DNA of 64,000 bases from Bacillota bacterium (GTDB lineage Bacteria; Bacillota; Dethiobacteria; DTU022). Below are positions 9,344 through 63,463 of the stretch, piece by piece. The first letter of the stretch is position 1. Each line of letters opens with the position of its first letter. The translations under genes and the position numbers were made by a program. The notes beneath the pieces were generated by a model. That model saw only the letters and a program-made list of their open reading frames with translations. It was not told the origin of the DNA and did not search any database. The stretch lies in assembly GCA_012840855.1 (NCBI GenBank), contig DUVX01000096.1, positions 41 through 64,040 of the forward strand, read 5' to 3'.

Positions 9344-10450
9344 CTACTCCGGCGGGGCGGTGAGCAGACCACCGCGGCGGGCGAAACGTTCCTCCGCCAG
9401 GGTGAGCAGGCGATCAACCAGTTCACGGTAGCCGATGCCGCTTACCTCCCATAATTTCGGATACATGCTGATGGCGGTAAAGCCGGGCATGGTATTGATC
9501 TCATTCACATAGAGCGAACCGCTGTCCGTATCGACAAAAAAATCGACACGGGCCAGGCCGCCGGCCTCCACTGCTCTAAAAGCGCGGCAGGCGTACTCCC
9601 GCACCCTTTCTTCCAGATCCGGCGCCAGCCGGGCGGGATAGATTAGCTCCGAGCGGTCATCAAGATATTTGGCCCTGTAGTCGTAGAACTCATTGCTGGG
9701 GATAATCTCGCCGGGGCGTGAGGCGCGGGGCTCAAGGTCTCCTAGGACGCTGCATTCGATCTCCCTGCCCCGCAGCGCTGCTTCAACAATTACCTTGTCA
9801 TCGTAGCGCAGCGCCTCTTCGACAGCGGCGGACAGCTCCCCCTCCTCCATTACCCGGGAGATGCCGATACTGGAACCAAGATTGGCCGGTTTTACGAAAA
9901 GGGGTAGCCCTAGTTCGCTGCAAATCTGCCCCGTCAGGCGGGGAGCCTCCGCCTGCCACCGGGGGCGGTTAAAATGGAGGTAGGCCCCTACCGGGAGCCC
10001 GTGCTGCTGAAAGAGGAGCTTCATGACCACCTTGTCCATGGCCACCGACGAGGCGAGCACCCCGGAGCCCACATAAGGTATCCCAGCGAGCTCGAAGAGG
10101 CCCTGAACGGTTCCATCCTCGCCATAGGGACCGTGCAGAACGGGAAAAACCAGATCTATCTTCACGAAACGCCAGGAGAGCCCGCCCCTTGTTCCCTCAA
10201 TGAGCAGACCCGGCCGAAGCGGGTCGGTGAGCATGACCGCCCGGGGCAGAGCGCTCAGATCGCCTTGCTCCCGGAGACGCTCCCAGACCTCTTCGCCGCT
10301 CAGCCAGGTCCCGTCGCGGCTGATCCCCACTGGGATGATGGCATAGCGTTCCTCATCGATCGCTTCCATGATCGCCCGGGCCGATTTTAGGGAGACAACA
10401 TGCTCACCGGAGCGTCCTCCGAAGAGCACGGCAACATTTTTTCGTTCCAT
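9344..10450 (-). CDS. ddl: D-alanine--D-alanine ligase
   Basis: MERKNVAVLFGGRSGEHVVSLKSA at the N-terminus. ATP-grasp core. C-terminal EINTMPGFT motif. The start is placed at Met 7 of the 9344..10468 ORF, which has an AAGGGGTG RBS. Confidence 0.85.
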   Translation of the reverse strand: MERKNVAVLFGGRSGEHVVSLKSARAIMEAIDEERYAIIPVGISRDGTWLSGEEVWERLREQGDLSALPRAVMLTDPLRPGLLIEGTRGGLSWRFVKIDLVFPVLHGPYGEDGTVQGLFELAGIPYVGSGVLASSVAMDKVVMKLLFQQHGLPVGAYLHFNRPRWQAEAPRLTGQICSELGLPLFVKPANLGSSIGISRVMEEGELSAAVEEALRYDDKVIVEAALRGREIECSVLGDLEPRASRPGEIIPSNEFYDYRAKYLDDRSELIYPARLAPDLEERVREYACRAFRAVEAGGLARVDFFVDTDSGSLYVNEINTMPGFTAISMYPKLWEVSGIGYRELVDRLLTLAEERFARRGGLLTAPPE

Positions 10451-10598
10451 AGCGGCACCCCTTACCACTTGATCTTCCCCGGATAGAAGAAGCCGGCGAA
10501 TTATTACTGATTATTATATCATTAAACGTCAAAAGGCTGCAGCAGATCTGAAAGAGCTGCCGAAACCACAGCGGCACAGCTACAGGCAGCCCTTCCTG

Positions 10599-10698: not shown

Positions 10699-12015
10699 TT
10701 GCTGAGGCAAACAACTCCCCCAAATAAAAGCGATGCCTTATTATATGGGCGCGAAGCCGCTTTTGTCCCGCTGCTTTTTGGCAGCGACATCAACGTCTAC
10801 TCTCTGGCGCGGGCATTTCATGAGAGCTATGGGCTCCGCTCAACAGTCTGGGGTAAATATGCTACGGGGCCCTGTTACAACAGCGATATCATCAATTTTC
10901 ACACCTGTGCGCAAAATGACCGGCCCGACCGCTTCATGGAGCATGTGCAAAGCTTTGCCCGATCGCAGGGTGATAAAATAGTTTTTCTTATCGGCTGCGG
11001 CGACAACTATATCCGCCTCTGTAGCGACTTTCTGGGTAGCTACCCGGATAATGTTATCGCCCCTTACCCCGGAAGGGAACTTGTCGATCTCCTCTTCCAC
11101 AAGGAGCGTTTTTACCGCCTCTGCGAGGAGCGGGGGCTGGCTTATCCGAAAACTTTTGTTTATCGGCCGGGCGAAAGTGCCGGCGCCGCGCCGCCCTTCG
11201 AGGGACCCTATATCCTTAAACCGGCCAATCCGATCCTTTACTGGCAGCACCCTTTCCCCGGTCAGAAGAAAGCGTACCGCTTTGCTCGCATCGGCGAGCT
11301 GGAGAGAGCCTTGGAGAAGGTCTACGCCGCCGGCTACGATGACAGCATGATTGTCCAAGATTTTATCCCCGGTGACGATACCTATATGCGGGTGATGACC
11401 GGGTACGCCAACCGGAAGGGCCGCGTTGAGCTGATGGCTCTGGGCCATGTGCTCCTGGAAGAGCACACCCCGCAGGGCATCGGCAACCACGCCGTGATCA
11501 TCAATGAATACGATGAGGCCCTGGCGATGGAGCTTAAAAACTTTCTTGAGGTCATCGGCTTTACCGGTTTTTTTAACTTTGATCTGAAATACGACCAGCG
11601 CGACGGTAAAATGAAGGTGCTGGAGCTCAATGTCCGCCAGGGGCGGAGCAACTACTATGTCACCGGGGCAGGGCACAATCTTGCCGAATACCTGGTGAAC
11701 GATTATATCCTGAACCAGCCCGCCGCATTCACCATCGCCCGAGAGAAATATCTCTGGAGCGTGGTGCCGCGAAGCGTTATGTTCAGCTATATCCGGCCGC
11801 AGATCTACAGGGAGGAGATGAGAGCGCTGATCATGGAGGGACGGATCAACAACCCCCTCAATTATGCTGCTGACAGAAATTTTAAACGGCGCCTTTCTCT
11901 TTTCAAATCACAGCTGGGCCATATCTACAAGTACCGCAAATACCTCGGCAACAGCGTTCGCGCCGCGCAGGCTCCCGCCGCCTCCGTATACCCGCGGACG
12001 CCGGGCGAAAAGTGA
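10699..12015 (+). CDS. ATP-grasp family ligase (candidate D-aspartate ligase, Aslfm-like; otherwise an uncharacterised carboxylate-amine ligase)
   Basis: 438 aa. An N-terminal pre-ATP-grasp region and a central ATP-grasp fold (ILKPANPILYW..., FNFDLKYDQRDGKMKVLELNVRQGRS). Followed at a 31-nt gap by an Asp/Glu racemase and divergent from ddl. The start is annotated as TTG with no obvious RBS, so the start is uncertain. Confidence 0.5.
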   Translation: MLRQTTPPNKSDALLYGREAAFVPLLFGSDINVYSLARAFHESYGLRSTVWGKYATGPCYNSDIINFHTCAQNDRPDRFMEHVQSFARSQGDKIVFLIGCGDNYIRLCSDFLGSYPDNVIAPYPGRELVDLLFHKERFYRLCEERGLAYPKTFVYRPGESAGAAPPFEGPYILKPANPILYWQHPFPGQKKAYRFARIGELERALEKVYAAGYDDSMIVQDFIPGDDTYMRVMTGYANRKGRVELMALGHVLLEEHTPQGIGNHAVIINEYDEALAMELKNFLEVIGFTGFFNFDLKYDQRDGKMKVLELNVRQGRSNYYVTGAGHNLAEYLVNDYILNQPAAFTIAREKYLWSVVPRSVMFSYIRPQIYREEMRALIMEGRINNPLNYAADRNFKRRLSLFKSQLGHIYKYRKYLGNSVRAAQAPAASVYPRTPGEK

Positions 12016-25311: not shown

Positions 25312-25316
25312 GTTAC

Positions 25317-26909: not shown

Positions 26910-26948
26910 TTTTCTGCAACCTAACAAAAGCGCTAGAAAGGGTAAATT

Positions 26949-27083: not shown

Positions 27084-27092
27084 AAGCGGGGG

Positions 27093-27428: not shown

Positions 27429-27448
27429 AACAGCCAGCAGGGCTGATC

Positions 27449-27658
27449 ATGGAAAAAGTATGCCTGGCGGCGATATCAGTGTATCAAAGATATATTTCGC
27501 CGCTAAAACCTCCTACCTGCAGGTTCTATCCGACCTGTTCTCAGTACTGTTATGATGCAATAAGAAAATACGGGGTCTTCCGGGGTGGTATGCTCGGGGT
27601 GAAACGGATACTGCGATGCCATCCTTTCCACCCGGGCGGCTACGACCCGGTAAAATAA
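27449..27658 (+). CDS. yidD: Membrane protein insertion efficiency factor YidD
   Basis: [22 protein letters not shown]...[11 protein letters not shown]. The start is placed at the internal Met (MEKVCLAA). Confidence 0.85.
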
Positions 27659-27690
27659 GGCTCCTCCAGGAAACCAAGGGGTGATCTAAG

Positions 27691-28440: not shown

Positions 28441-29057
28441 TACCTGTTGAAACAACGGGACGTACCGTGGAAGAAGCCGTGGAGAAAGCGCTCTCCGCTC
28501 TCGGAATAAGAAAGGAAAACGCTTCCATTAAGGTGCTCAGCGAACCGGCGCAGGGCCTCTTCAGCTTTATCAGCTCACGGGTGGCGCGGGTTAAAGTGGA
28601 GCCGCAGGAGGGGCCGGCGGAGTATTTAAAAAATATACTGGGCGATATTATTGCGCCGATGGGTTTAAGGACAAAGGTTATGGTGGAGGAAGATGAGGAG
28701 AAGATCGAGGCTGCGATCAGCGGCAAAAGAGTGGGAGTCTTAATCGGGCGGCGGGGGAAAACTTTAAATGATCTGCAGTACCTGGCAAACACGATAATGC
28801 GCCGTCAGTTTACCCATTTAGGGAAGATGATCATTATCGATGTGGAAAATTACCGCTACCGGCGCGAAAAAACATTAACCCGCCTGGCCAGGAATATTGC
28901 CCGCAGCGTAGAACAGGACGGATGCGAAGAGATACTCGAGCCGATGACGCCGCAGGAGAGGCGGGTGATCCACCTGGCGCTAAAGGACTGCGGTGGCGTG
29001 GTCACCTACAGCAGAGGAGAGGAGCCCTACCGAAAGGTGGTTATTGCTCCCCGGTAA
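28437..29057 (+). CDS. jag: Jag/KhpB RNA-binding protein (KH plus R3H)
   Basis: 206 aa. KH-like GRRGKTLNDLQYL. C-terminal R3H domain. Confidence 0.85.
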   Translation: MIPVETTGRTVEEAVEKALSALGIRKENASIKVLSEPAQGLFSFISSRVARVKVEPQEGPAEYLKNILGDIIAPMGLRTKVMVEEDEEKIEAAISGKRVGVLIGRRGKTLNDLQYLANTIMRRQFTHLGKMIIIDVENYRYRREKTLTRLARNIARSVEQDGCEEILEPMTPQERRVIHLALKDCGGVVTYSRGEEPYRKVVIAPR

Positions 29058-29102
29058 GCGAGAGGTAGCGCACCGCTCCTCGGCCGGGGAGCGGTTTTTT
29101 CT

Positions 29103-30512
29103 TTGAAAGGGGGATTATATTTGGGTTTTGATGAGACCATCGCCGCCATCGGCACTCCCCCGGGGGAGGGAGGCATCGGCATAGTCCGGATCAGCGGAGC
29201 AGAGGCCTACTCCATCGGCAAAAGGATATTTGTGCCTCGCAGAAAGGGGCCGGCTGACGATTATCCCCGCTCTCACCACCTCTACTATGGCCATATATTT
29301 TCCGAGAAGGGCGGGATCATCGATGAAGTGCTGCTCTCTTTTATGAAAGCGCCGCACACCTATACCCGCGAAGACAGTGTGGAGATAAACTGCCACAGCG
29401 GTATATTTACACTGCGGCAGATATTGAAAAGGGTGCTGAGCGAAGGGGCGCGACTGGCCCGACCCGGTGAGTTCACCGAGCGGGCTTTTTTAAGAGGGCG
29501 TATTGATCTGAGCCAGGCGGAAAGCGTTTTGCGGATAATCCGGGCTCGCTCGGAGGAAGGGGCTCGTATAGCAGCCGATAATTTAAAGGGGAGGCTCTCA
29601 CAAAATATTCGTAAGATGCGCAGCGCCATGCTCAGCCTACTGGCCCGGGTGGAGGCCCAACTGGATTTTCCCGATGATCTGGATGATGAAGCGGCGGTGG
29701 AGGAGGAGATCAAAAAGGAGCTGTTGCGGTTCAGGGGGGAGCTGGAGAGATTGGCGGAAGGCGCTGAAAGAGGGCAGACAATGCAGGAGGGACTGCTCAG
29801 CGCCATTGTGGGAAAGCCCAATGCCGGAAAATCCTCCCTGCTCAACGCTCTACTCCGGGAGCAGCGGGCCATTGTCCATGAAGCGCCCGGTACAACGCGG
29901 GATCTGCTCGAGGGATATCTCACCATAAGCGGCTACCCGCTACGCCTGATCGACACCGCCGGGATCCACGCGACGGAGGATCCGGTGGAGCAGGCAGGCA
30001 TAAAAAAAGCGGCGGGAGCTGCTACCAGAGCCCGGCTCATGATCCTGGTGCTCGACGGCTCCACCGCCTGGAGCGAAGATGACGATGCCGCGGCAGCGCT
30101 AATCGGGCCGGGGCAGCTGGTGGTCATCGTGATCAACAAGATAGATCTGCGGCAGCGGCTCAGCAGGGAGATAGTGAGCGAAAAATTTGGCGATTGCCCG
30201 GTAGTGGAGACGGCGGCGATCAAAGATGAGGGCATCGGCTGCCTGGAGGAGACGATCGGGAGATTGCTCGATCGCAGCCTGGGGACGGCCGGTGCAGAGT
30301 CGCCGATCATGACCAGCATGAGACAGGCCCGGATTGTTGAGGAGACGCGGGATAGCCTGGAGAGGGCGCTAGGGGTTCTATCCGGGCAGCCGCTGGAACT
30401 GGTAGCCCTGGAGCTGCGGGAAGCCTGGCGGAAGCTCGGAGAGATTACCGGGGAAACTGCTTCGGGAGAGCTGCTCGATCAGATCTTCAGCGAGTTCTGT
30501 ATCGGCAAGTGA
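29103..30512 (+). CDS. mnmE: tRNA modification GTPase MnmE
   Basis: 469 aa. G domain GKPNAGKSSLLNAL and DTAG. C-terminal FCIGK. Confidence 0.9.
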   Translation: MKGGLYLGFDETIAAIGTPPGEGGIGIVRISGAEAYSIGKRIFVPRRKGPADDYPRSHHLYYGHIFSEKGGIIDEVLLSFMKAPHTYTREDSVEINCHSGIFTLRQILKRVLSEGARLARPGEFTERAFLRGRIDLSQAESVLRIIRARSEEGARIAADNLKGRLSQNIRKMRSAMLSLLARVEAQLDFPDDLDDEAAVEEEIKKELLRFRGELERLAEGAERGQTMQEGLLSAIVGKPNAGKSSLLNALLREQRAIVHEAPGTTRDLLEGYLTISGYPLRLIDTAGIHATEDPVEQAGIKKAAGAATRARLMILVLDGSTAWSEDDDAAAALIGPGQLVVIVINKIDLRQRLSREIVSEKFGDCPVVETAAIKDEGIGCLEETIGRLLDRSLGTAGAESPIMTSMRQARIVEETRDSLERALGVLSGQPLELVALELREAWRKLGEITGETASGELLDQIFSEFCIGK

Positions 30513-30537
30513 AAAAAGGTGGGCCGGGAAAGGCGAT

Positions 30538-31257
30538 ATGAGGGAACTGGCACCCATTTTGGAAAATATAGCTAAGATGCTCGATCTGAAACTGAATAAC
30601 GAGCAAAAACGACAGCTTTTGCGATATATTGCGCTGATACTGGAGGGTCTCACGAGGCAGCGGCTGGTGGGGGAAACAAGGGGAGATATTCTGGTGGAGA
30701 AGCATCTTTTTGACTGTCTTTATCCCTTGAAGCTGTGGAGATTGACACCCCCCAGCCTGCTCGATCTGGGAACGGGGGCGGGCCTGCCGGGGATTCCTCT
30801 TAAAATATGCCTCCCCGGTACGGAGCTTTACCTCCTCGATGCAGCGAGGCGCAAGATCAATTTTTTAAGGCGCGTTGCCGCCGAGCTCGCCCTACAGGGT
30901 ACCTATTTTATGCCAGGAAGGGCCGAGCGATGGGGCCACCATCCCCGCTACCGCGAAAAATTTGACTGTGTGGTCAGCCGTGCCGTGGCCGGAGCTGCAG
31001 TTTTGGCCGAGCTGGCTTTGCCGCTGGTAAGGGTGGGGGGAGAGCTGCTCCTTTACAAAGGGAAAGGGGGCCCCGAGGAGATCGAGGAAGCAGGGGCCTC
31101 CATACGGCTTTGTGGAGGGCGGCTGGAGCGCTGCGGACGCTACCGCCTGCCTACAGGAGAGGAGAGGACCCTTTTTGCGATAAAAAAAATTGAAGCTACC
31201 GCTGCGGCATACCCCCGGAGAGAGGGGAGAGCGGCGAAAAAGCCGCTGGGCTCCTAA
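30538..31257 (+). CDS. rsmG: 16S rRNA (guanine527-N7)-methyltransferase RsmG (GidB)
   Basis: 239 aa. SAM-binding LDLGTGAGLPGIPL. It follows mnmE directly, with no mnmG gene in between. Confidence 0.85.
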   Translation: MRELAPILENIAKMLDLKLNNEQKRQLLRYIALILEGLTRQRLVGETRGDILVEKHLFDCLYPLKLWRLTPPSLLDLGTGAGLPGIPLKICLPGTELYLLDAARRKINFLRRVAAELALQGTYFMPGRAERWGHHPRYREKFDCVVSRAVAGAAVLAELALPLVRVGGELLLYKGKGGPEEIEEAGASIRLCGGRLERCGRYRLPTGEERTLFAIKKIEATAAAYPRREGRAAKKPLGS

Positions 31258-31337
31258 TTTTATTTCTAATTTTGAAGGAATGTTACTGCGGTTGTCTAAT
31301 TAAATTTTAAGAGTATACATAAAGGGCGGGTGCTCAC

Positions 31338-32180
31338 ATGAAAGATAACCGGATGAAAGGGTACCCTGCGGTGCGGGGGGTGCCCGGCGAGGAGAAGGTC
31401 ATCCAGGTAAAAATAGAGGCGCTACTACCAAACCCCTACCAGCCAAGACAGGATTTCCCAGAAGATAAGATCAATGAGTTAAGGCAGTCCATCAGGACAT
31501 ACGGGCTGTTGCATCCCATCATCGTCCGTCGAAGGGGGCGGGGCTACCAGATTGTGGCCGGGGAGCGGCGGGCGATAGCCTGCCGGGGCCTGGGCTGGAA
31601 AACGATCCCGGCGATAGCAAGAGAGGTAACCGACAGCGCCATGGCAACGATGGCGCTTATCGAGAATTTACAGCGGGAGAACTTAAATTATCTCGATGAA
31701 GCCGCCGGCTATGCCCGGCTGATACAAGAATTTGCCCTCACTCAGGAGGTGCTCGCCCAGAGGCTGGGGAAAAGCCAATCGACCATCGCCAACAAGATGA
31801 GGTTACTGAAGCTTCCCGTTGAAGTGAAGGAGCTCCTGGTAAAAGAGCAGCTCAGCGAAAGACATGCCCGGGCTCTTCTAAAATTGGAAACAGAGGAACA
31901 GCAGCTGGCGATGATCCAGCAGATTATCAAGAAAAAGCTCACCGTGAGCGAAACGGAGAATAAAATTGATCAGATCGTGGGGAGAGAGGAGACCGGAGGG
32001 AGCGCCCCGCAGCGCAAGGTTGTGGTGCGGGATGTTCGCATCTTCCTGAACACGCTCCGAGAAGCGGTCAGGATTATTGAGAAATCCGGCCTCAGCCCCG
32101 AGGTGGAGGAGAAAGTGGAGCGCGATTATGTAGAGGTAACGATACGCTTTAAACGTAACAGTGACTTTAACGGGATCTAA
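31338..32180 (+). CDS. noc: ParB-family nucleoid occlusion protein (Noc-like)
   Basis: 280 aa. ParB box GERRxRA (GERRAIACR) and HTH (QEVLAQRLGKSQSTIANKMRLL). It lies upstream of parA-parB, as noc does in Firmicutes. Confidence 0.75.
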   Translation: MKDNRMKGYPAVRGVPGEEKVIQVKIEALLPNPYQPRQDFPEDKINELRQSIRTYGLLHPIIVRRRGRGYQIVAGERRAIACRGLGWKTIPAIAREVTDSAMATMALIENLQRENLNYLDEAAGYARLIQEFALTQEVLAQRLGKSQSTIANKMRLLKLPVEVKELLVKEQLSERHARALLKLETEEQQLAMIQQIIKKKLTVSETENKIDQIVGREETGGSAPQRKVVVRDVRIFLNTLREAVRIIEKSGLSPEVEEKVERDYVEVTIRFKRNSDFNGI

Positions 32181-32213
32181 AGAGCAAACTTATCGGTACA
32201 AAGGAGAGGGGAA

Positions 32214-32972
32214 ATGGCAAGGATCATAGCCATCGCCAATCAAAAAGGCGGTGTCGGTAAAACCACCACGGCAGTAAACCTTAGTGCCGCCCTGGCCCGT
32301 AGGGGAGAGAAAGTATTACTGCTGGATATCGATCCCCAGGGGAATACCACGAGCGGCATCGGCCTCTCCAAGAAGGAGATCAGGGTCTGCGTTTACGATG
32401 CTCTGATCAATGATCTACCCCTGCAGAGGATTATCTTGCCTTCTCGCTGGGAAAATCTAGATGTGGCGCCGGCCACAATCCAGCTGGCCGGCGCAGAGAT
32501 CGAGCTGGTTCCCACAGTATCGCGAGAAGTAAAATTAAAAGAGGCGCTTCAACCGATTATTGACAGGTACTCCTTTATCATGATCGACTGCCCTCCATCC
32601 CTGGGATTGTTAACCTTGAACGCGCTCACTGCTGCCGATGGGGTCCTGATCCCCATCCAATGCGAATATTACGCTCTGGAGGGGCTGGGCCAGCTGATGA
32701 ATACAATTACGCTGGTCCGCAAGCATCTCAACCAAAAACTGGACATTGAGGGTGTTGTCCTGACGATGTACGACTCGCGGACAAACCTGTCCGAGCAGGT
32801 TGTGGAAGAGGTGCGGGGCTACTTTCGGGAAAAAGTTTACCGGACCATCGTTCCCCGAAATGTCCGCCTCAGCGAAGCGCCGAGCCACGGTCTCCATATC
32901 TTCGAGTATGACCCCCGCTGCAAGGGTGCGGAGGTATATTACGCCCTGGCACGGGAGGTGATCGGAGATTGA
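32214..32972 (+). CDS. parA: Chromosome partitioning ATPase ParA/Soj
   Basis: 252 aa. Deviant Walker A KGGVGKTT. Confidence 0.9.
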   Translation: MARIIAIANQKGGVGKTTTAVNLSAALARRGEKVLLLDIDPQGNTTSGIGLSKKEIRVCVYDALINDLPLQRIILPSRWENLDVAPATIQLAGAEIELVPTVSREVKLKEALQPIIDRYSFIMIDCPPSLGLLTLNALTAADGVLIPIQCEYYALEGLGQLMNTITLVRKHLNQKLDIEGVVLTMYDSRTNLSEQVVEEVRGYFREKVYRTIVPRNVRLSEAPSHGLHIFEYDPRCKGAEVYYALAREVIGD

Positions 32973-33829
32973 AAGAGAAAAAACGGCTCGGCCGGGGGTT
33001 AGGTGCGCTGATCAATGAAGCGCTGACCGGGGAGGAGAATATCATGGAGCTGCCCCTGGATCAGGTGAAGCCCAACCCCCTACAGCCGCGCTCGGCTTTC
33101 GATCCGGGCAGGCTGGAGGAGCTGGCGGATTCCATCAGAGAACACGGCGTAGTTCAGGCGGTGATCGTATCGCCTGCGCCCCGGGGGGGCTATTACCTCG
33201 TCGCCGGCGAAAGGCGCTGCCGGGCGGCCAAAATGGCGGGGCTGACGAAGGTGCCGGCACTGGTCAGGGAGCTCGATGAGCGGGCGATGTTGGAGATCGC
33301 TCTTATTGAAAATTTGCAGCGCGAGGACCTGAACCCCATTGAAGAGGCGAGCTCTTATCGCCGGCTCATGGATGAGTTTGCGCTAACCCAGGAAGAGCTG
33401 GGGAGACGTCTGGGGAAAAGCCGGCCGGCCATCGCCAATGCGGTGCGCTTGCTTTCGCTGCCGCAGAGCGTGCAGAAGGCTATCATTGAAAAAAAACTGA
33501 ACGTGGGGCAGGCGCGGCCGTTGCTGGCAATAGAGGATCGATCCCGCCAGGAAGAGATGGCTCGACAGATCATCGAGGGTAAACTGACGGCCCGCGAAGC
33601 GGAAAAACTAACCGGTAAGGGAGCGAAGATGGGGCAGAAGCGCCGCCGGGAGGTGCCGGAACCGGCAGATCCCCTCACCAAAGAGCTGCAGGGCAGATTG
33701 CAGCGTCAGCTGGGAACAAGGGTCAAGATCTACCGGCGCAGGGGCGGCGGCTCCATCGAGATATCTTTTTACGGGGAGGATGACCTCGAGCGGCTCATCT
33801 CTCTGCTGATGCCAACCGGGCTGGATTAA
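32969..33829 (+). CDS. parB: Chromosome partitioning protein ParB/Spo0J
   Basis: 286 aa. ParB box GERRCRAAKMAG and HTH (QEELGRRLGKSRPAIANAVRLL). Confidence 0.9.
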   Translation: MKEKKRLGRGLGALINEALTGEENIMELPLDQVKPNPLQPRSAFDPGRLEELADSIREHGVVQAVIVSPAPRGGYYLVAGERRCRAAKMAGLTKVPALVRELDERAMLEIALIENLQREDLNPIEEASSYRRLMDEFALTQEELGRRLGKSRPAIANAVRLLSLPQSVQKAIIEKKLNVGQARPLLAIEDRSRQEEMARQIIEGKLTAREAEKLTGKGAKMGQKRRREVPEPADPLTKELQGRLQRQLGTRVKIYRRRGGGSIEISFYGEDDLERLISLLMPTGLD

Positions 33830-34468: not shown

Positions 34469-35368
34469 ATGGCTGACAAGAAACGATGTTTTACGATTAT
34501 GATCGTGCCTCATTCCGAGGAATCTACATACAGTATTCGCGTGCCCCTCTACATTGGCCAGCTAGTCGTTGCCCTCTGCGTAATCGGGCTTGCCGCTTTT
34601 TTTGTTCTGGCCTACGCATACAGCCGCGCCCTTACCGAAGCCGAGGAGGCGGCTATCCTACGGCGGGTTAACCAGGCCCAGCAGGACGAGATCGACTCTT
34701 TCGCCCGGCAGACCCAGCAGCTACTTCAGCAGATGCTGGAGGTAGAGGAACTGGCCCGGCTGGTGTCGGAGAAGTTGGGGCTCAGACTGGAGGATGGAAA
34801 ATCCACTTCGCGTAAAGAGGAGCGCTCCCCGGAAGGGCGTAACTATGCATCGCGCGCTGATGAGCGGATTTTGGATCGTACGGCAGACAACCTGGCCGCG
34901 CTGGAGGAGCTTCTGCCCGAAAACACTGTAGCCCTGCAAACACTGAAAGAAGAGGTTGATGAATATAACCGCCGCCTGGCGGCAACCCCTTCTGGATGGC
35001 CCTGCGGAGGCAGGGTCACTTCGGGATTCGGGATGCGCCGATCGCCCTTCGGAGGGGGCTACAGATTTCATTACGGCATCGATATCGCCTCATCTCATGG
35101 CAGCTCCATCTGGGCCACCGCAAAAGGGAGGGTTTCCTTCGCCGGATACAGGCGGGGGTTGGGGAACCTGGTCATTATCCAGCATGGCTATGGCTTTCAA
35201 AGCTATTACGGACACCTCTCCAGGATAGCTGTTTCACCGGGCCAGGTGGTGGAGAGGGGCCGGGTGATCGGATATATGGGGCGAACCGGATCTGCCACCG
35301 GTACCCACCTTCACTATGAGGTGCATCTCCACGGGGTGGCGGTGAATCCGGCGCAATATATGTACTAA
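34469..35368 (+). CDS. M23 family metallopeptidase (LytM domain) with N-terminal TM and coiled-coil
   Basis: 299 aa. HYGIDIA...H, YGHLS and GTHLHYEVH zinc-binding motifs. Confidence 0.85.
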   Translation: MADKKRCFTIMIVPHSEESTYSIRVPLYIGQLVVALCVIGLAAFFVLAYAYSRALTEAEEAAILRRVNQAQQDEIDSFARQTQQLLQQMLEVEELARLVSEKLGLRLEDGKSTSRKEERSPEGRNYASRADERILDRTADNLAALEELLPENTVALQTLKEEVDEYNRRLAATPSGWPCGGRVTSGFGMRRSPFGGGYRFHYGIDIASSHGSSIWATAKGRVSFAGYRRGLGNLVIIQHGYGFQSYYGHLSRIAVSPGQVVERGRVIGYMGRTGSATGTHLHYEVHLHGVAVNPAQYMY

Positions 35369-35386: not shown

Positions 35387-35806
35387 ATGTTTAAGAGGAC
35401 ACCGCGGGAGGCTCCACCGGGCAAGGTCAGCACGATCATCGGCGAGGATGCTTGCTTTAAGGGATCGATCAAGACAAAAAGCCTCATCAGGATCGATGGT
35501 GAGATGGAAGGCGATATCACTACCCAGGGTGACGTGGTCATCGGGGAGAGTGGAAAGGTGAAGCTGGATCTAAAAGCCCGCAATATTACCATCGCCGGAC
35601 GCTTTGACGGCAGCCTGGAGGCAGAGGGTAAGCTGGAGATAAGAGGAAGCGGGGTTATCCTAGGGAGCGTGAAGGCAAACGGTCTGATCGTTGACGACGG
35701 CGCTGTTTTTTCCGGGAATATGGAGATCTGCGTTTACACTGAGGGTGCGGCGGCGCTGCCTTTCCAAGAAAAGGGATCTGATTCTGGAATAGAGGAGAAG
35801 ACTTAA
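35387..35806 (+). CDS. Bactofilin (polymer-forming cytoskeletal protein)
   Basis: 139 aa. Repetitive beta-helix segments (GDVVIGESGKV, ITIAGRFDGSLEAEGKLEIRGSGVILGSVKANGLIV). 18 nt downstream of the M23 peptidase. Confidence 0.8.
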   Translation: MFKRTPREAPPGKVSTIIGEDACFKGSIKTKSLIRIDGEMEGDITTQGDVVIGESGKVKLDLKARNITIAGRFDGSLEAEGKLEIRGSGVILGSVKANGLIVDDGAVFSGNMEICVYTEGAAALPFQEKGSDSGIEEKT

Positions 35807-45839: not shown

Positions 45840-47228
45840 TTGATGAGATCCCAGAGTGGCCGATTATGGACAGCGGCGCTACGCAAAAGATTGCAGCGCG
45901 CTTACCGTAACAGCGAGCTGAGGAAACTGCGGCTGTGGTTTGAGGGTAAAACCCTGCACTGGTCGCTTTACCTGGTGCTGGCATCGCTTTTGATCAGCGT
46001 GCTTTTGGGGGTGCATCATTACCGCTCTTCTTTTTTCTACATAGTCAATGTGGAGGGGGAGGAGATCGGTATGGTTCATGATGAGGGCGTGGTGAAGCAA
46101 TTCCTCGACGATCTCACGTCAAAGTGCAGCTCCTTCTACGGGATGCCCGTGGAGCTCGAGCAGGAAGTTACCCTGAACCGTGAATATCGCTCCTCCGGTG
46201 AAGAAAATCCCGGCGCTGTGCAAGAGGCTCTCCGCCGGCAGATCAGGCTGGTCACCGATGCGGTCATGCTGACGGTGGATCAGGTTCCTGTTGTTCCGCT
46301 GAGGTCGGAGAAAGAGGTTGACGAGGTGGTCGATCTGCTTAGCAACCGCTTCGCCAGCCAGGTAGGCGATAAAAACCTGCTGAAGACTTGCCTGGTTGAG
46401 GAGGTTGGTGCGGCACCGTGCTGCGTTTCTCCGGAGAGGGTTTGCGCTCCCGGGGAAGTGGCGGAGCTGCTGTGCGGTGATGGAGAGATCGAAGAGGGCC
46501 GGGCGCTTCTGGCCAGCAGGGCGGGGGAGAAATTGCAGCTGGAAGAGGCGCTGCCGCAGGTACATGTGCAGACTGTTGAAAAGATCAGCATTACAGAAAC
46601 TATCCCTTTCAAGACCAGCTATCGCTATAGCAACAAAATGTGGTATGCGCAGAGCCGTGTGATCACCCGGGGCGAGGCGGGCAAAAAAGAGGTTTCCTAC
46701 CATGTGACCCGTGAAAATGGCCGGGAGATTGCCCGTAAGAAAGTAGATGAAAGGATTCTCCAGGAGCCGGTTACCAAAGTGGTGGAGAAAGGAACCGCCC
46801 GGGCCCCCTCGCTGGGCAGCGGCCGTTTTCTCTGGCCCGTGGAGGGCGGCGGCAAGATCAGCTCCGGATACCGTACCGCCGGCAGGCCGGGGCATGTGGG
46901 CATCGATATCTGGCACAGTAATGGCATCAATACCCGGATCCTCGCTGCAGACAGCGGAGCGGTGGTAGAAACAGGCTGGGACCCTGCCCGGGGCAACTAT
47001 ATCGTGCTCTATCACGGTTCTTACTACACCGTCTACGCCCACAACCGGGTGAACAGGGTCTCCGCAGGGGATACAGTCAGCCGGGGTCAGTGTATCGCCT
47101 TGATGGGAAACACCGGCCGCACCTATGGCCGGACGGGGGTGCACCTTCACTTCGAAGTCCGCCTGGGCCAGTTGAAGAAATGGTCGGCCAATCCCACGGT
47201 TAATCCTCTGAATTTCTTCAGCCCTTAA
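45840..47228 (+). CDS. M23 family metallopeptidase with N-terminal TM anchor and long linker
   Basis: 462 aa. HVGIDI, YAHN and GVHLHFEV motifs in the C-terminal 130 aa. Confidence 0.85.
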   Translation: MMRSQSGRLWTAALRKRLQRAYRNSELRKLRLWFEGKTLHWSLYLVLASLLISVLLGVHHYRSSFFYIVNVEGEEIGMVHDEGVVKQFLDDLTSKCSSFYGMPVELEQEVTLNREYRSSGEENPGAVQEALRRQIRLVTDAVMLTVDQVPVVPLRSEKEVDEVVDLLSNRFASQVGDKNLLKTCLVEEVGAAPCCVSPERVCAPGEVAELLCGDGEIEEGRALLASRAGEKLQLEEALPQVHVQTVEKISITETIPFKTSYRYSNKMWYAQSRVITRGEAGKKEVSYHVTRENGREIARKKVDERILQEPVTKVVEKGTARAPSLGSGRFLWPVEGGGKISSGYRTAGRPGHVGIDIWHSNGINTRILAADSGAVVETGWDPARGNYIVLYHGSYYTVYAHNRVNRVSAGDTVSRGQCIALMGNTGRTYGRTGVHLHFEVRLGQLKKWSANPTVNPLNFFSP

Positions 47229-58783: not shown

Positions 58784-59331
58784 AGAGACTCTCCCCCCAC
58801 CGGATCTGTCAGTATATTGAATAGATAGTATGATCCTAGAGGGTGAAATTCATAACTATAAAAGAGATTTTATTAGAAAAGCAGGAAATAGAGGAACAGT
58901 AGCGAATAGCTTACAGCATAAGGTAGCAGGTCGCCCGGCGGGTCCGCCCGAGCTCACCGGGAGCCCGGAATAAATTATCCTCAAAAAGATCATAATTTTT
59001 CATAAGAAAGGTTTTGAAAGTCCCCCGAAAAAAGGCGCGCCCATTCTTTTGTTAATAGAGGCTCAGTATCTCCCTGTAAGGATATATCAGACTGGCCTGC
59101 GGTGTTTGTGCGAAGATGCTCACATGCGCTGCGCCACGCCGGGTTGGAGAACCCGGGCAGGGATACTGCGAGAACCGGCCAGGAGTATTTTGTCCGGCCA
59201 TTTACCCCGGTTGTCTGCTGATCCCCATACACATTTTAACCAAGCATAAGCACAGACGGGCGGCTTTCCCCGGAGGCGAATTGATCTGAGAGAACGTATC
59301 ATATAAATGAAGTAAGGGTGGTGTTTTTAAA

Positions 59332-60618
59332 TTGGATCCAAGTCAACTACAATCGGCGACGTTGAGTGAACTTCGCCGCCTGGCCAGGGAAAAAGCGCTG
59401 CGGGGCCATTCCACCATGCGCAAGCAGGAGCTGGTCGACGCTTTGACCCGGTTGCTCACCTCCGCGGAGACCGTTGCCGAGGATAATGGGGAAGATGAAG
59501 CGGAAAAGAAGCTGGACAGCGCTTCCGGCCTCCTGGAGATCATGAATGATGGGTTTGGGTTTTTGCGCCGTTATCGTTATCGCTATTCCGACGACGATAT
59601 CTATATCTCCGCCTCGCAGATTCGACGCTTTAATCTGCGCACGGGAGATATCATCTCCGGCCGGATCAGGCCGCCGAAAGATAATGAGCGGTATTATGCG
59701 CTGCTGCAGGTGGAATCGATCAATGGGGATAAGCCGGAAAGCTTTGCGCGGCGGCCCACCTTCACCTCGCTGGTGCCGGTCCATCCCCGTGTAGCGATGC
59801 GCATGGAGACGGAACCCCATATTCTTGCAACCAGGATTATCGATCTTCTGATCCCCATCGGCAAAGGGCAGCGGGGGCTGATTGTCTCTCCCCCTAAGGC
59901 AGGAAAGACCATTCTTTTAAAACAGATTGCCAACAGTATCTCCACGAACCATCCCGAGGTAACCCTGATCATCCTGCTGGTCGATGAACGGCCCGAAGAG
60001 GTTACCGATATGGAGCGCAGCGTCAAGGCCGATGTGGCCAGCTCTACTTTTGACCAGCGGCCGGAGAACCATATCCGGATCTCCGAGCTGGTTCTGGAGA
60101 GGGCCCAACGCCTCGTAGAGCGGGGGCACGATGTGGCCATCCTTCTGGACAGCATTACCCGCCTGGCCCGAGCCTACAACCTGGTCATCCCCCCCAGCGG
60201 GCGGACCCTTTCCGGGGGGATCGATCCGGCGGCCTTCTACAAGCCCAAACGCTTTTTCGGAGCGGCCCGCAATATTGACGGCGGCGGCAGCCTTACGATC
60301 ATCGCCACCGCTCTAATCGATACCGGCAGCCGCATGGACGATGTGATCTATGAAGAATTCAAGGGGACGGGTAATATGGAGCTGCATCTGGACCGCAAGA
60401 TCTCCGAGCGCCGTATCTTCCCGGCCATCGATATATCCCGTTCGGGGACGCGCCGCGAGGAGCTTCTTCTCGATGAACACAAGATCGAGCTCATGTGGGC
60501 CCTGCGGCGGGCGATGGGAAATACCCAGAACGTTGAATTCCTGGAGATGCTCTTCGACCGGCTAAAGAAAACAAAAAACAACGAGGACTTTCTCAACAAC
60601 ATGTATACTTTTTCATAA
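59332..60618 (+). CDS. rho: Transcription termination factor Rho
   Basis: 428 aa. N-terminal domain, RNA-binding OB fold, and RecA-like ATPase ([10 protein letters not shown]). TTG start with an AAGGGTGGTG RBS. Confidence 0.95.
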
Positions 60619-60733: not shown

Positions 60734-61624
60734 GTGAGGGAGGCTGATATGATGTCAGGTCTTGCGAAGACAGCTACGGCAATGCTCATCGGGGGGCTGA
60801 TCTGCCTCGGCTTTGCCGGAGGTGGAGCAGCCCGGGAGCAGGGAGGGGAGGAAGGAGAGCGGGGAGGGGTGCCGCTTTATTATCTGCAGCTGCAGGATTT
60901 TACGGCAACCCTGGAAGAAGAAGCTCTCCGGCCAAAGATTTTAGACTATACGGTTCAGGCGGGAGACTGCCTGAGCACGATTGCGGCAGAATTTGGGACC
61001 GATCTGAGTACGCTCATACATCTGAACGAGCTGAGCAATCCCGGGCTGATCTACCCGGGGGACCGGTTGGAGATTCTGACCGTGGCCGGCTGCGTTCATG
61101 ATGTGGTGGAAGGGGATACGCTGGCAGCTATAGCGCGCTCCTACGGTGTTGAAGAGAGGGCGATACTGCAGGCCAACGAGATTGAAAATCCGGCGACGCT
61201 GCCCCGAGGGGAGCGCATCATCGTGCCGGGAGGGGTTATATCTCGCGGTGCGCTGCAGCCCTCCTTCCGGTGGCCCCTGCAGGGCAACCTCACTTCCGGC
61301 TACGGCTGGAGGGGCGGTAAATTTCATTACGGCATCGATATCGGTGCCCCCTACGGCTCGACCTTTCGAGCGGCGGCGGCCGGCCGGGTTGCCTTCGTCG
61401 GTTACAGGGGCAGCTACGGGATTTTGATCGAGGTAGATCATGGTGCCGGTTTTCGGACGCGCTATGCCCATGCAGGCAAGGTCCTAGTTTCGGCGGGCCA
61501 GCGGGTAAAGGCCGGCCAGAGGCTGGGCAGTGTGGGCATGACCGGCAATACTACCGGCCCTCATCTTCATTTTGAAATTCATGACGGCGGGGAGAAGGTG
61601 AACCCGCTGCGGCTCTTGAATTAA
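60734..61624 (+). CDS. LysM (x2) plus M23 metallopeptidase
   Basis: Two LysM repeats (YTVQAGDCLSTIAAEFG and HDVVEGDTLAAIARSYG), then M23 motifs HYGIDIG, YAHA and GPHLHFEIH. N-terminal signal/TM. Confidence 0.85.
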   Translation: MREADMMSGLAKTATAMLIGGLICLGFAGGGAAREQGGEEGERGGVPLYYLQLQDFTATLEEEALRPKILDYTVQAGDCLSTIAAEFGTDLSTLIHLNELSNPGLIYPGDRLEILTVAGCVHDVVEGDTLAAIARSYGVEERAILQANEIENPATLPRGERIIVPGGVISRGALQPSFRWPLQGNLTSGYGWRGGKFHYGIDIGAPYGSTFRAAAAGRVAFVGYRGSYGILIEVDHGAGFRTRYAHAGKVLVSAGQRVKAGQRLGSVGMTGNTTGPHLHFEIHDGGEKVNPLRLLN

Positions 61625-61670: not shown

Positions 61671-63173
61671 GTGGTCTCTGTCAAAAACTTCAGCGCCGGG
61701 GAGCTGCTGGAGCCCTTTCTTCCGGACCGCCTGAAGAGGGAACTCCGGCGGATCAGCGTTTCCCGGCTGGCCTATCATTCCGGCAGGGTGGTGCCGGGAA
61801 CTCTTTTTTTTTGTTTGTTCGGCAGCAAAGCGGACGGACATGACTACGCTGCTGAGGCTGTCTCCCGGGGGGCGGCGGCCCTCGTTGTTTCCCGCCGGAT
61901 CGGCCCTGTTGCCGCCGGGGTGCCGGTGATTGCGGTGGAGGACAGCAGGCTGGCCCTATCCGCCGCCGCAGCCCACTTTTACGGATACCCCAGCGATAGG
62001 ATGAAGACGATGGGGATAACCGGCACTGATGGAAAGACCACGACCTCCTATTTTATCGCCAGCATCTTCGAAGCAGCCGGTTACCGCACCGCCATAATGG
62101 GCAGTAACGGCTTCATTTTGAAGGATCAAAGAAAGCAATTTGGCTTGACCACCCCACAGTCGCTGGATCTCCAGGAATATCTCCATCTTTCCCTGCAGGA
62201 AGGGGCGGCGGTGGCGGTGGTGGAAGTCTCTTCGCACGCTCTGGTGCAGCAAAGGGTGGCGCATTGCTTTTTTGACTGTGCGGCCTTTACTAACCTGAGC
62301 GGCGAGCATCTCGATTATCACCGGACCATGCCGCAGTATCTCGAAGCGAAAAGCCGGCTGCTGGGCCTGTTGAAAAGGGGGCGCTCCGCCGGCGGGGTTG
62401 TCCTCAATGCCGACGATTATTACTACCGTGAACTCTCCGCGCGGGCGGCGCATCTTCCCCAGCTCACCTACGGTGTTACCGCCGCAGGGGCTGGGATAAA
62501 AGCGGTGGGGCTGCGTCAGGACGAAAGTGGGCGCTACAGCTTCAACCTTCTAGGCTGGCCCGAGCCTTTTCCGGTAGAGCTCCGCCTTCCAGGAAGGTTC
62601 AATCTCTACAACGCTCTGGCGGCGGCGGCGGTGGCCCGACGGGAGGGGCTCGATCCCGCAGCGGTGGTTCGGGGGCTGGCGTCGTTGCGGCAGGTTCCCG
62701 GCCGCTTCGAAGAGTATGAGACGCCCGCAGGCTTCAATGTGATCATCGATTTCGCCCATACCCCGGAGGGGCTGGAGCAGGTCTTGAGGCTGCTTTCGGG
62801 GAGGCGGGCCCGTCGGCGGATCACTCTTTTTGGCTGCCCCGGCGAGAGGGATCGCCGCAAAAGGCCGCTGATGGGAAAGATCGCCGAGCTCTATAGCGAT
62901 ATGGTGATCCTCACCGCCGATAATCCCGCTGGGGAGGAGGCTGGGGCGATCATCGAGGATATCAGGCGGGGTATGAGCACCGATCCGCTGATCATCCCCG
63001 ACCGGCGGGAGGCTGTATTCCACGCCCTTTCCACCGCTGCACCCGGAGATCTGGTGCTCCTGGCCGGGAAAGGGGCCGAGGAGTACCAGATCATCGGAGA
63101 GAGGGCCGTACCGTACAGCGATCGTCAGGCAGTTGCCGACTATCTAGCAGAAAAGGGCTTCGGAGGGGGCTAG
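61671..63173 (+). CDS. murE: UDP-N-acetylmuramoyl-L-alanyl-D-glutamate--amino acid ligase MurE (DNPA variant, L-lysine-type signature)
   Basis: 500 aa. P-loop GITGTDGKTTT. The C-terminal domain has ADNPAGEE where meso-DAP-adding enzymes have DNPR. GTG start. Confidence 0.85.
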   Translation: MVSVKNFSAGELLEPFLPDRLKRELRRISVSRLAYHSGRVVPGTLFFCLFGSKADGHDYAAEAVSRGAAALVVSRRIGPVAAGVPVIAVEDSRLALSAAAAHFYGYPSDRMKTMGITGTDGKTTTSYFIASIFEAAGYRTAIMGSNGFILKDQRKQFGLTTPQSLDLQEYLHLSLQEGAAVAVVEVSSHALVQQRVAHCFFDCAAFTNLSGEHLDYHRTMPQYLEAKSRLLGLLKRGRSAGGVVLNADDYYYRELSARAAHLPQLTYGVTAAGAGIKAVGLRQDESGRYSFNLLGWPEPFPVELRLPGRFNLYNALAAAAVARREGLDPAAVVRGLASLRQVPGRFEEYETPAGFNVIIDFAHTPEGLEQVLRLLSGRRARRRITLFGCPGERDRRKRPLMGKIAELYSDMVILTADNPAGEEAGAIIEDIRRGMSTDPLIIPDRREAVFHALSTAAPGDLVLLAGKGAEEYQIIGERAVPYSDRQAVADYLAEKGFGGG

Positions 63174-63262
63174 CCCCGGGAAAAAACTTTCCTTCTGTTG
63201 CGCGATAAATAAGGTTGTGTTATCATCTAGTTTCGGAAGAAGAGCCAGAGGAGGTGCTTTTA

Positions 63263-63463
63263 ATGAAAGAGAATATTCACCCCCCTTATCACCGGACAAA
63301 ACTGACCTGTGCCTGCGGTGAGTCTTTTGAAGTGGGCTCCACAAAGGAGAACCTGCGGGTCGAGATCTGCTCCAAGTGTCATCCCTTCTTTACCGGCAAG
63401 CAAAAATTTGTTGATACCGGCGGCAGGGTAGAGCGCTTCAAGCGCAAGTATGGCCTCAAGTAA
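63263..63463 (+). CDS. rpmE: 50S ribosomal protein L31 (zinc-binding type A)
   Basis: [48 protein letters not shown]. Internal Met with a GAGGAGG RBS. Confidence 0.9.

What the first reader, a model, noticed from the sequence alone, without database searches (positions are those of the whole stretch)
61671..63173. Stand-alone MurE with DNPA instead of the DNPR motif
The amino-acid-selecting motif in the MurE C-terminal domain reads ADNPAGEE. Meso-DAP-adding MurE enzymes carry DNPR, whose Arg contacts the distal carboxylate of DAP. L-Lys-adding enzymes such as S. aureus MurE have DNPA. This murE also sits alone between a LysM-M23 peptidase and rpmE, not inside a dcw cluster. That raises the possibility of a second, specialised MurE, for example vegetative Lys-type versus cortex DAP-type peptidoglycan as in Lysinibacillus.
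Basis: partly seen in the sequence, partly recalled or inferred. Interest (0 to 1): 0.5.

Follow-up and report, generated by a model that had tools for sequence, protein, structure and literature searches.

The report
MurE ligase lacking the DAP-binding arginine
This is an intact cell-wall ligase (MurE) from an uncultured Dethiobacteria-type Firmicute that has lost the arginine that grips diaminopimelate, so it probably builds a lysine- or ornithine-type wall; that is a known kind of variation, although databases label this gene a diaminopimelate ligase.

Summary
ORF 61671-63173(+) is a complete 500-aa MurE. Alignment to E. coli MurE puts its A-D-N-P-A-G-E-E on D-D-N-P-R-T-E-E, so Ala420 (GCT, 62928-62930) replaces Arg416. 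It lies between a LysM-M23 peptidase and rpmE, near the replication origin and outside any dcw cluster.

The Arg loss is lineage-wide. Forty-nine homologues without Arg form one clade in an NJ tree. All keep the catalytic residues and most share a second signature, G386P. The 70 more distant homologues all have DNPR.

Context suggests a cross-bridged, non-DAP wall. A D-aspartate-ligase-like ATP-grasp gene sits next to ddl in this window. Dethiobacter sp. has a FemAB gene abutting its DNPA murE.

The "second MurE" idea is partly right. The same MAG encodes another MurE-family ligase of 515 aa (HHW73912.1 versus HHW74693.1). It belongs to a distinct, highly conserved subfamily with a remodelled acceptor pocket, not a DNPR type.

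I could not determine whether a third, DNPR-type murE sits in the dcw cluster.

Verdict: a probable L-Lys (or L-Orn) adding MurE of independent origin, annotated in databases as a DAP ligase. Modest interest.

The parts
61671..63173 (+). [quoted passage not shown]
   Evidence: ORF. TIGR01085 460 bits; Pfam Mur_ligase, Mur_ligase_M and Mur_ligase_C. AlphaFold model pLDDT 92.6, TM 0.86-0.88 to 1E8C and 4C13.
62919..62930 (+). D417-N418-P419-A420, the DNPA motif at the DNPR position (E. coli 413-416); Ala codon GCT at 62928-62930
   Evidence: HMMER and MAFFT alignments; DNA read directly.
62022..62039 (+). ATP-binding P-loop G118-T-D-G-K-T123 (GxxGKT)
   Evidence: G118, G121, K122 and T123 are invariant columns in 40- and 119-sequence alignments; position 120 varies (D here, N in most).
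62349..62351 (+). K227, equivalent of the carbamylated Lys224 of E. coli MurE
   Evidence: Invariant column.
62838..62840 (+). P390 (E. coli G386), a second clade signature beside the conserved Arg389-equivalent
   Evidence: Pro in 46 of 49 Arg-less sequences, Gly in 70 of 70 DNPR sequences.
63075..63080 (+). A469-E470: E. coli His467 replaced by Ala in this subclade; Glu468, which binds the side-chain amine, is kept
   Evidence: Column counts.
60734..61624 (+). LysM-LysM-M23 peptidase with intact HxxxD and HxH motifs, 46 nt upstream; probably co-transcribed with murE
   Evidence: Pfam. The same gene pair occurs in L007, L008 and L060. There is no convincing terminator in the gap.
10699..12015 (+). 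ATP-grasp ligase of the family that JGI names D-aspartate ligase, divergent from ddl; candidate cross-bridge enzyme
   Evidence: 24% identity over 306 aa, E 4e-17, to the Halobacillus ATP-grasp beside a MurE-like gene and a racemase. Homologues at 53-63% identity are named 'D-aspartate ligase' by JGI. No curated model hit.
9344..10468 (-). ddl, D-alanine--D-alanine ligase
   Evidence: NF002528 450.8 bits, cut-off 262.
59332..60618 (+). rho, upstream flank of the conserved block
   Evidence: Pfam; 90% identical in relatives.
63215..63463 (+). rpmE (L31), downstream flank; the real start is probably ATG 63263
   Evidence: Pfam; called as 66 aa on other contigs.

Best explanation
The gene is a functional, classical-type MurE of an uncultured Dethiobacteria-type Firmicute. 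[quoted passage not shown]

The ancestor of this lineage lost the arginine that pairs with the distal carboxylate of meso-DAP (E. coli R416 became Ala), and Gly386 became Pro. The enzyme kept Asp413, Glu468 and Arg389. I infer that it no longer selects DAP and instead adds a diamino acid with no distal carboxylate. L-lysine is most likely and L-ornithine is possible.

The free side-chain amine would then be extended by a cross-bridge enzyme. In this genome the candidate is the D-Asp-ligase-like ATP-grasp next to ddl. In Dethiobacter it is a FemAB transferase.

Shown: gene identity, motif position, clade-wide conservation, intact catalytic residues, genomic context, and the presence of a second MurE-family gene in the genome.

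Inferred: the substrate, the cross-bridge, and the division of labour with the second ligase.
For: 1. MurE identity and fold are supported.
2. DNPA sits at the DNPR position.
3. The 49 Arg-less homologues (A 44, G 3, V 2) are monophyletic in an NJ tree. All 70 outgroup sequences have Arg. The P-loop glycines, lysine and threonines (G115, T116, G118, K119, T120), T157, T158, E182, R192, H210, K224, R389, D413, N414, G464 and E468 are invariant in the clade. G386P is present in 46 of 49.
4. Arg416 and Asn414 bind the D-centre carboxylate of mDAP. S. aureus Lys-MurE has DNPA, and there Asp406 and Glu460 hold the lysine amine (PMC3829189).
5. Dethiobacter sp. has a DNPA murE abutting a FemAB gene whose best model is the Lys N6-alanyltransferase FemX.
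6. The window has an ATP-grasp gene beside ddl that belongs to a family labelled D-aspartate ligase. D-Asp ligases act on the L-Lys side chain (PMC4155827).
7. Synteny and sequence are conserved like those of a working housekeeping gene: 67-70% identity, against 71-78% for PBP1A.
Against: - No enzymology or wall chemistry exists for this lineage; a search for Dethiobacter plus peptidoglycan found nothing relevant.
- The protein scores above the curated cut-off of a DAP-ligase equivalog (NF001126, 457.8 versus 373) and far below the Lys-ligase equivalog (NF010628, 310 versus 536).
- Every DAP-contacting residue except Arg416 is retained.
- The motif is not a sufficient determinant. S. aureus A409R gains no DAP activity. 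T. maritima MurE has DDPR yet adds L- and D-Lys.
- The genome has a second MurE-family ligase that could be the real Lys/Orn enzyme.
- 'D-aspartate ligase' and FemX are annotation-level or sub-threshold assignments.
Confidence: 0.6

Rival explanations
1. It is still a DAP ligase (meso- or LL-DAP), as databases annotate it. Asn414, Asp413, Glu468 and Arg389 would suffice to bind DAP, and the Arg loss would be tolerated or compensated.
For: It scores above the NF001126 DAP-ligase equivalog cut-off. All other DAP contacts are conserved. Sources name it and its relatives a 2,6-diaminopimelate ligase. The motif alone is not decisive.
Against: The Arg is invariant in all 70 outgroup MurEs and in 133 of about 150 nearest 50%-identity representatives, which implies strong selection wherever DAP is used. 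Its loss is fixed across a whole clade, together with G386P. The FemAB and D-Asp-ligase-like neighbours fit a Lys/Orn wall. From my own recollection (paper not held), mutating the DNPR Arg of M. tuberculosis MurE abolishes activity.
Confidence: 0.15
2. It is one of two specialised MurE-type enzymes. This DNPA enzyme and the 515-aa MurE-like ligase would make different precursors, for example vegetative wall versus spore cortex, or two different diamino acids. This would resemble the Lys/DAP switch of Lysinibacillus sphaericus.
For: The two co-occur in the window's MAG and in two related species. The 515-aa protein keeps the nucleotide-, ATP- and D-Glu-side residues but has a wholly different acceptor domain. 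The lineage sporulates, judged by SpoIIR, SASP, SpoIID and Germane-domain genes.
Against: There are no expression data. The best promoter-like site upstream of the M23-murE pair is sigma-A-like and weak. Neither enzyme has the DNPR expected for a DAP cortex. The activity of the 515-aa family is unknown and it may not be a position-3 ligase at all.
Confidence: 0.3
3. The 515-aa ligase is the true Lys/Orn-adding enzyme, and this DNPA protein has a different or relaxed role, for example adding D-Lys or another non-canonical amino acid, or acting as a back-up.
For: In Halobacillus mangrovi the 515-aa homologue sits between an ATP-grasp ligase and an Asp-type racemase. By my own recollection that genus has an Orn-D-Asp wall. 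The 515-aa family is more conserved (77-80% within the group) than the DNPA MurE (67-70%).
Against: The DNPA clade is present in all three Dethiobacteria sub-lineages sampled, with an intact active site. In Dethiobacter, FemAB is linked to the DNPA gene, not to the other ligase.
Confidence: 0.15
4. It is a decaying or non-enzymatic paralogue, like the plant MurE-like protein PAP11.
For: Plant MurE-like proteins with DNPK or DNPA motifs have lost ligase function.
Against: All catalytic and substrate-binding residues are invariant. The ORF is full length, the model is confident, and the gene is conserved across species in conserved synteny.
Confidence: 0.03

Closest known systems
Staphylococcus aureus MurE (L-lysine ligase, PDB 4C12/4C13; NCBIfam NF010628)
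   Same: Both have DNPA at the DNPR position. The Asp (D406/D417) and Glu (E460/E470) that hold the side-chain amine are conserved. The fold is the same three-domain fold (TM 0.88). By my own recollection S. aureus murE also lies outside the dcw cluster.
   Different: Identity is only about 32%. The window protein scores 310 bits against a cut-off of 536 for that family, so the Arg loss arose independently. The window protein has Gly where S. aureus has Ser456, and carries G386P. Whether its pocket is acidic was not tested.
E. coli and M. tuberculosis MurE (meso-DAP ligases, PDB 1E8C, 2WTZ; NF001126-type)
   Same: These are the closest by sequence (about 35% identity, 277 bits) and by curated model. 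All catalytic residues and all DAP contacts except one are the same.
   Different: Arg416 is Ala, Gly386 is Pro and His467 is Ala. The gene is not in a dcw cluster.
Thermotoga maritima MurE (L-/D-lysine ligase, PDB 4BUB)
   Same: It is a Lys-adding enzyme that looks like a DAP-type MurE by sequence (266 bits). It shows that specificity can shift within this scaffold.
   Different: T. maritima keeps the Arg (DDPR) and can still use DAP in vitro. The window enzyme has lost the Arg.
Lysinibacillus (Bacillus) sphaericus dual Lys / DAP-adding activities (own knowledge, 1970s biochemistry)
   Same: It is a spore-former with more than one position-3 ligase activity. The window genome also has two MurE-family genes.
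   Different: Here neither gene has DNPR, and no developmental regulation is known.
515-aa MurE-like subfamily (HHW73912.1; Halobacillus 'Mur ligase family protein')
   Same: It is encoded in the same genome. It shares the MurE N-terminal and central domains, the P-loop, TT157/158, R192, H210 and K224.
   Different: It is 31% identical to the window protein. The acceptor-domain motifs are all replaced (DNPR becomes KD.V, GKGHE becomes GCQGM, K393/R394 are lost). The window gene is not a member of this subfamily.

Membership tests
MurE (UDP-N-acetylmuramyl-tripeptide synthetase, TIGR01085) | Whole-protein HMM score above the curated cut-off | tested here: met
   460 bits against a cut-off of 257.3.
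MurE (UDP-N-acetylmuramyl-tripeptide synthetase, TIGR01085) | Three Mur-ligase domains (N-terminal, central ATPase, C-terminal) | tested here: met
   PF01225, PF08245 and PF02875 all above cut-off. Model pLDDT 92.6; TM 0.86-0.88 to MurE structures.
MurE (UDP-N-acetylmuramyl-tripeptide synthetase, TIGR01085) | Catalytic residues: P-loop GxxGKT, carbamylated Lys224, His210, Glu182, Thr157/158, Arg192 | tested here: met
   All present in the window protein; the clade-wide invariant columns are G115, T116, G118, K119, T120, T157, T158, E182, R192, H210 and K224.
meso-DAP-adding MurE (EC 6.3.2.13) | DNPR motif, with the Arg binding the distal carboxylate of DAP | tested here: not met
   DNPA; Ala420 aligns with Arg416.
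meso-DAP-adding MurE (EC 6.3.2.13) | Score above a curated DAP-ligase equivalog model | tested here: met
   NF001126 457.8 against 373. Three other DAP equivalogs score below their cut-offs.
meso-DAP-adding MurE (EC 6.3.2.13) | Adds meso-DAP in vitro, or DAP is present in the wall | not testable with these tools
   No biochemical data found.
L-lysine-adding MurE of the Staphylococcus/Streptococcus type (EC 6.3.2.7, NF010628) | Score above the equivalog cut-off | tested here: not met
   310.1 bits against a cut-off of 536.
L-lysine-adding MurE of the Staphylococcus/Streptococcus type (EC 6.3.2.7, NF010628) | Arg-less motif (DNPA) with the Asp and Glu that bind the side-chain amine retained | tested here: met
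   D417, A420 and E470. Roles of these residues are from PMC3829189.
L-lysine-adding MurE of the Staphylococcus/Streptococcus type (EC 6.3.2.7, NF010628) | Net acidic acceptor pocket | not tested
dcw-cluster murE | Located between pbpB/spoVD and murF/mraY | tested here: not met
   Flanked by rho, an M23 peptidase, rpmE and prfA, in the window and in relatives. Other DNPA-clade members are also stand-alone.
515-aa MurE-like subfamily | Remodelled C-terminal domain (HFANSGN, RGSRGV.VNRENA, GCQGMD motifs) | tested here: not met
   The window protein has the classical motifs and is 31% identical.

The most novel reading that the evidence does not exclude
Dethiobacteria may build their walls with two non-DAP MurE-type ligases. 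One is a classical MurE that lost the DAP-carboxylate arginine (this gene). The other is an uncharacterised, very conserved 515-aa MurE-like enzyme with a completely different acceptor domain. The 515-aa enzyme is also found in Halobacillus, between an ATP-grasp ligase and an Asp-type racemase. The two would supply chemically distinct precursors, for example vegetative wall versus spore cortex, or Lys versus Orn. The 515-aa family would then be a new class of position-3 (or other stem-peptide) ligase.
Probability: 0.25. Interest if true: 0.6.

Novelty: new member of a known kind. Interest (0 to 1): 0.33.

Why it matters
- It predicts the wall chemotype (Lys/Orn with a cross-bridge, not DAP) for an uncultured, spore-forming class common in anaerobic digesters and alkaline habitats.
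- It flags a probable systematic mis-annotation. NCBI and JGI name this whole clade '2,6-diaminopimelate ligase'.
- It offers a natural experiment on MurE specificity. Here a DAP-like scaffold lost only Arg416 (plus G386P). This is the reverse of the S. aureus A409R mutant, which failed to gain DAP activity.
- The co-occurring 515-aa MurE-like ligase is the more interesting lead for new peptidoglycan biochemistry.

Tried and rejected
- **Finding a DNPR murE or the dcw cluster in the same or a related genome.** No window protein has a paralogue in the dcw cluster that could be used as bait. This question is unresolved.
- **Using 'longest_contig' to link genes to one genome.** In the homology tables this value is shown only for cluster representatives. 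It worked only after cluster members and accession numbers were listed.
- **The Chryseomicrobium hit L051.** I first took it for a Lys-type MurE to pull out the S. aureus sequence. It is actually a member of the 515-aa subfamily. I therefore never obtained a direct residue-by-residue alignment to 4C12 and relied on the residue numbers in PMC3829189.
- **A non-coding element or riboswitch near murE.** Rfam found nothing in the whole window.
- **A closest DNPR sister group that might be a within-lineage paralogue.** No DNPR sequence is notably closer to the clade.
- **The unannotated 346-aa gene near the P0023 murE as a hidden FemAB.** It shows no similarity.
- **The M. tuberculosis DNPR mutagenesis paper.** It is not held.
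- **Fold comparison.** It cannot separate Lys-type from DAP-type MurE.
- **A sequencing error at the Ala codon.** Rejected.

Full report
**Observation**

The window carries one 500-aa ORF at 61671-63173(+). It scores 460 bits on TIGR01085 (murE; cut-off 257) and has the three Mur-ligase Pfam domains. Its closest solved relatives are E. coli, T. maritima, M. tuberculosis and S. aureus MurE.

HMMER aligns 'iltadnpageeagaiiedi' with E. coli 'vvtddnprteepraiindi'. Ala420 therefore occupies the position of Arg416. A 119-sequence MAFFT alignment gives the same column. The codons are gat aat ccc gct at 62919-62930.

The identical protein is found on 12 contigs from several independent runs. An AlphaFold model built from 40 homologues is confident (pLDDT 92.6). 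It superposes on MurE structures with TM 0.86-0.88, and matches DAP-type and Lys-type structures equally well.

**Setting**

The window is the replication-origin region of a Firmicute. The minus strand carries dnaA, dnaN, recF, gyrB and gyrA. The plus strand carries yidC, jag, mnmE, rsmG, noc and parAB. GC skew changes sign at about 24-27 kb.

Around the finding the gene order is murA, histidine phosphatase, HtrA, metalloenzyme, MBL hydrolase, PBP1A(-), rho, LysM-M23 peptidase, murE, rpmE. On other contigs this continues with DUF1385, prfA and prmC. The block is identical in relatives whose MurE is 67-70% identical.

murE starts 46 nt after the M23 peptidase gene, with no convincing terminator between them. 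The two genes are probably one transcription unit.

NCBI calls the protein HHW74693.1 (MAG, Bacillota bacterium). Members of its 90% cluster and its relatives are labelled Dethiobacteria bacterium.

**Is the missing arginine a lineage trait?**

Among the 120 best homologues, every sequence at about 45% identity or more has a non-Arg residue at this position (A 44, G 3, V 2). All 70 more distant sequences have DNPR.

The 49 Arg-less sequences form one clade in an NJ tree, with three sub-lineages:
- the window type (DNPAGE);
- the Dethiobacter type (DNPAS/TE);
- a DNPARE type.

Within the clade the following are invariant: the P-loop residues G115, T116, G118, K119 and T120, plus T157, T158, E182, R192, H210, the carbamylated K224, R389, D413, N414, G464 and E468. 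A second signature, G386P, is present in 46 of 49. No DNPR sequence is especially close to the clade. The clade is slightly more divergent than DNPR sequences are from each other.

Among the 150 nearest 50%-identity representatives of 1.8 billion proteins, about 133 have DNPR and about eight lack Arg at this position (P0015, P0048, P0478, P0493, P0519, P0548, P0594, P0597). Loss of the Arg is therefore rare but recurrent.

**What the motif means**

According to Ruane et al. 2013 (PMC3829189):
- Asn414 and Arg416 of DNPR hydrogen-bond the distal carboxylate of mDAP.
- S. aureus MurE has DNPA. Only its Asp406, together with Glu460, contacts the lysine amine.
- Replacing Arg by Ala discriminates electrostatically against DAP.
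- A409R does not create DAP activity, so the motif is not the only determinant.

T. maritima MurE has DDPR yet puts L- and D-Lys in the wall.

The window enzyme keeps the Asp and Glu that hold the amine and loses the carboxylate partner. I therefore infer a diamino acid without a distal carboxylate. L-Lys is most likely, and L-Orn is possible.

Curated models point the other way. The protein passes a DAP-ligase equivalog (NF001126, 457.8 against 373) and fails the Lys-ligase equivalog (310 against 536). This shows an independent origin from the Staphylococcus/Streptococcus family. It also explains why databases call it a DAP ligase.

**Context evidence for a cross-bridged, non-DAP wall**

1. 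In Dethiobacter sp. contigs the DNPA murE lies after proC, proB, proA and a homocitrate synthase. It overlaps, tail to tail, a FemAB-family gene. The best curated match of that gene is the UDP-MurNAc-pentapeptide-lysine N6-alanyltransferase FemX, at 124 bits, which is below the cut-off.

2. In this window a 438-aa ORF (10699-12015) lies divergent from ddl. It has no curated family hit. It is homologous (E 4e-17) to the ATP-grasp ligase that precedes a MurE-like gene and an Asp-type racemase in Halobacillus mangrovi. Its 53-63% identical homologues in Clostridia are named 'D-aspartate ligase' by JGI. D-Asp ligases are ATP-grasp enzymes that add D-Asp to the L-Lys side chain (PMC4155827).

3. 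The upstream M23 peptidase is consistent with cross-bridge or cross-link cleavage, but it is not diagnostic.

These are annotation-level leads, not tests.

**Is there a second MurE?**

In L068, a DNPARE-type murE converges on a 513-aa MurE-like gene. That protein defines a very conserved subfamily, 60-70% identical between Dethiobacteria MAGs, Clostridia, Halobacillus and Chryseomicrobium.

Cluster listings show that it co-occurs with the DNPA MurE in the same genomes:
- Window MAG: HHW74693.1 (DNPA MurE) and HHW73912.1 (515-aa ligase). A second assembly gives MGI6614621.1 and MGI6616394.1.
- P0010 species: HOA34676/HOA35960, HOJ83224/HOJ83361 and HOL14978/HOL15653. Both genes are on a 3,544,436-bp contig.
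- P0007 species: HOB28630/HOB28842 and HPZ41318/HPZ41596. Both genes are on a 2,088,991-bp contig.

In the window species the second ligase follows an M24 peptidase gene, asnB and a ferredoxin gene. It is not in a dcw cluster.

It keeps the MurE residues for UDP-MurNAc-peptide, ATP and the carbamyl-lysine. Its acceptor domain, however, is completely different: H359A, K393N, R394A, no DNPx motif, and GKGHE replaced by GCQGM.

The partner is not a DNPR/dcw enzyme, and its activity is unknown. I could not establish whether a third, DNPR murE exists in the dcw cluster.

**Verdict**

The gene is a real, functional MurE whose sequence argues against DAP and for Lys or Orn. It represents an independent loss of the DNPR arginine in the Dethiobacteria lineage.

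Arg-less MurE enzymes and stand-alone murE genes are well known in Gram-positive bacteria, so this is a new member of a known kind. The probable mis-annotation gives it some added value. So does the co-occurring uncharacterised MurE-like ligase, which is the more novel lead.

I put confidence in 'non-DAP specificity' at about 0.6-0.7, and in L-Lys specifically at about 0.45. Interest is modest.

Noticed in passing
Outside the window: L072:10001-11548, L073:7411-8958 (P0342 = HHW73912.1); also L069, L070, L068:2500-4041, L051:9938-11485, L071:8001-9548: A very conserved 513-515-aa MurE-like ligase subfamily is encoded in the same MAG as the window's MurE and in related species. It is 60-70% identical between Dethiobacteria, Clostridia, Halobacillus and Chryseomicrobium. 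Its N-terminal and central domains are MurE-like, but the acceptor (C-terminal) domain is entirely remodelled and has no DNPx motif. Sources name it variously DAP ligase, tripeptide synthetase or 'Mur ligase family protein'.
   Followed up: partly
L071:6688-10288 (Halobacillus mangrovi CP020772): The 515-aa MurE-like gene lies between an ATP-grasp ligase and an Asp-type amino-acid racemase. This looks like an operon for a non-DAP residue plus a D-Asp bridge.
   Followed up: partly
window 10699-12015 (+), divergent from ddl 9344-10468 (-): A 438-aa ATP-grasp ORF has no Pfam or NCBIfam assignment. Its homologues are labelled 'D-aspartate ligase' by JGI. It is a candidate peptidoglycan cross-bridge ligase.
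   Followed up: partly
L063:8747-12491 (Dethiobacter sp. JGI contig Ga0208242_100082): The DNPA murE lies after proC, proB, proA and a homocitrate synthase (TIGR02660, above cut-off), and overlaps a FemAB-family gene tail to tail. The homocitrate synthase could hint at alpha-aminoadipate lysine synthesis, or it could be NifV.
   Followed up: partly
L068:1002-4041 (PWVN01000016.1): A DNPARE-type MurE has a roughly 50-aa Pro/Gly/Ser-rich C-terminal extension (541 aa in total).
   Followed up: partly
P0476 (979 aa, from the representative library): A tandem fusion of two MurE modules in one protein. The N-terminal half has DNPR. The C-terminal half has DNAE at the same position (Pro replaced by Ala, Arg by Glu).
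   Followed up: partly
window about 20330-33829: Replication-origin region. dnaA (25317-26678), dnaN, recF, gyrB and gyrA are on the minus strand. yidC, jag, mnmE, rsmG, noc and parAB are on the plus strand. GC skew changes sign at about 24-27 kb. Near-consensus DnaA boxes flank dnaA (25183, 25243, 26718, 26753).
   Followed up: partly
window 34469-35368, 45840-47228, 60734-61624: Three M23 peptidase genes occur in 64 kb. The first is followed by a bactofilin gene (35387-35806).
   Followed up: no
window 58784-59331: A non-coding stretch of about 550 nt lies between the divergent PBP1A gene and rho. It has no Rfam match, and it may be a long rho leader.
   Followed up: no
L072:7370-9761 and L069/L070, L073: An asnB-type amidotransferase gene and a small ferredoxin gene consistently precede the 515-aa ligase in the window's lineage. 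AsnB-type enzymes amidate peptidoglycan residues in other Firmicutes, so a functional link is possible.
   Followed up: no
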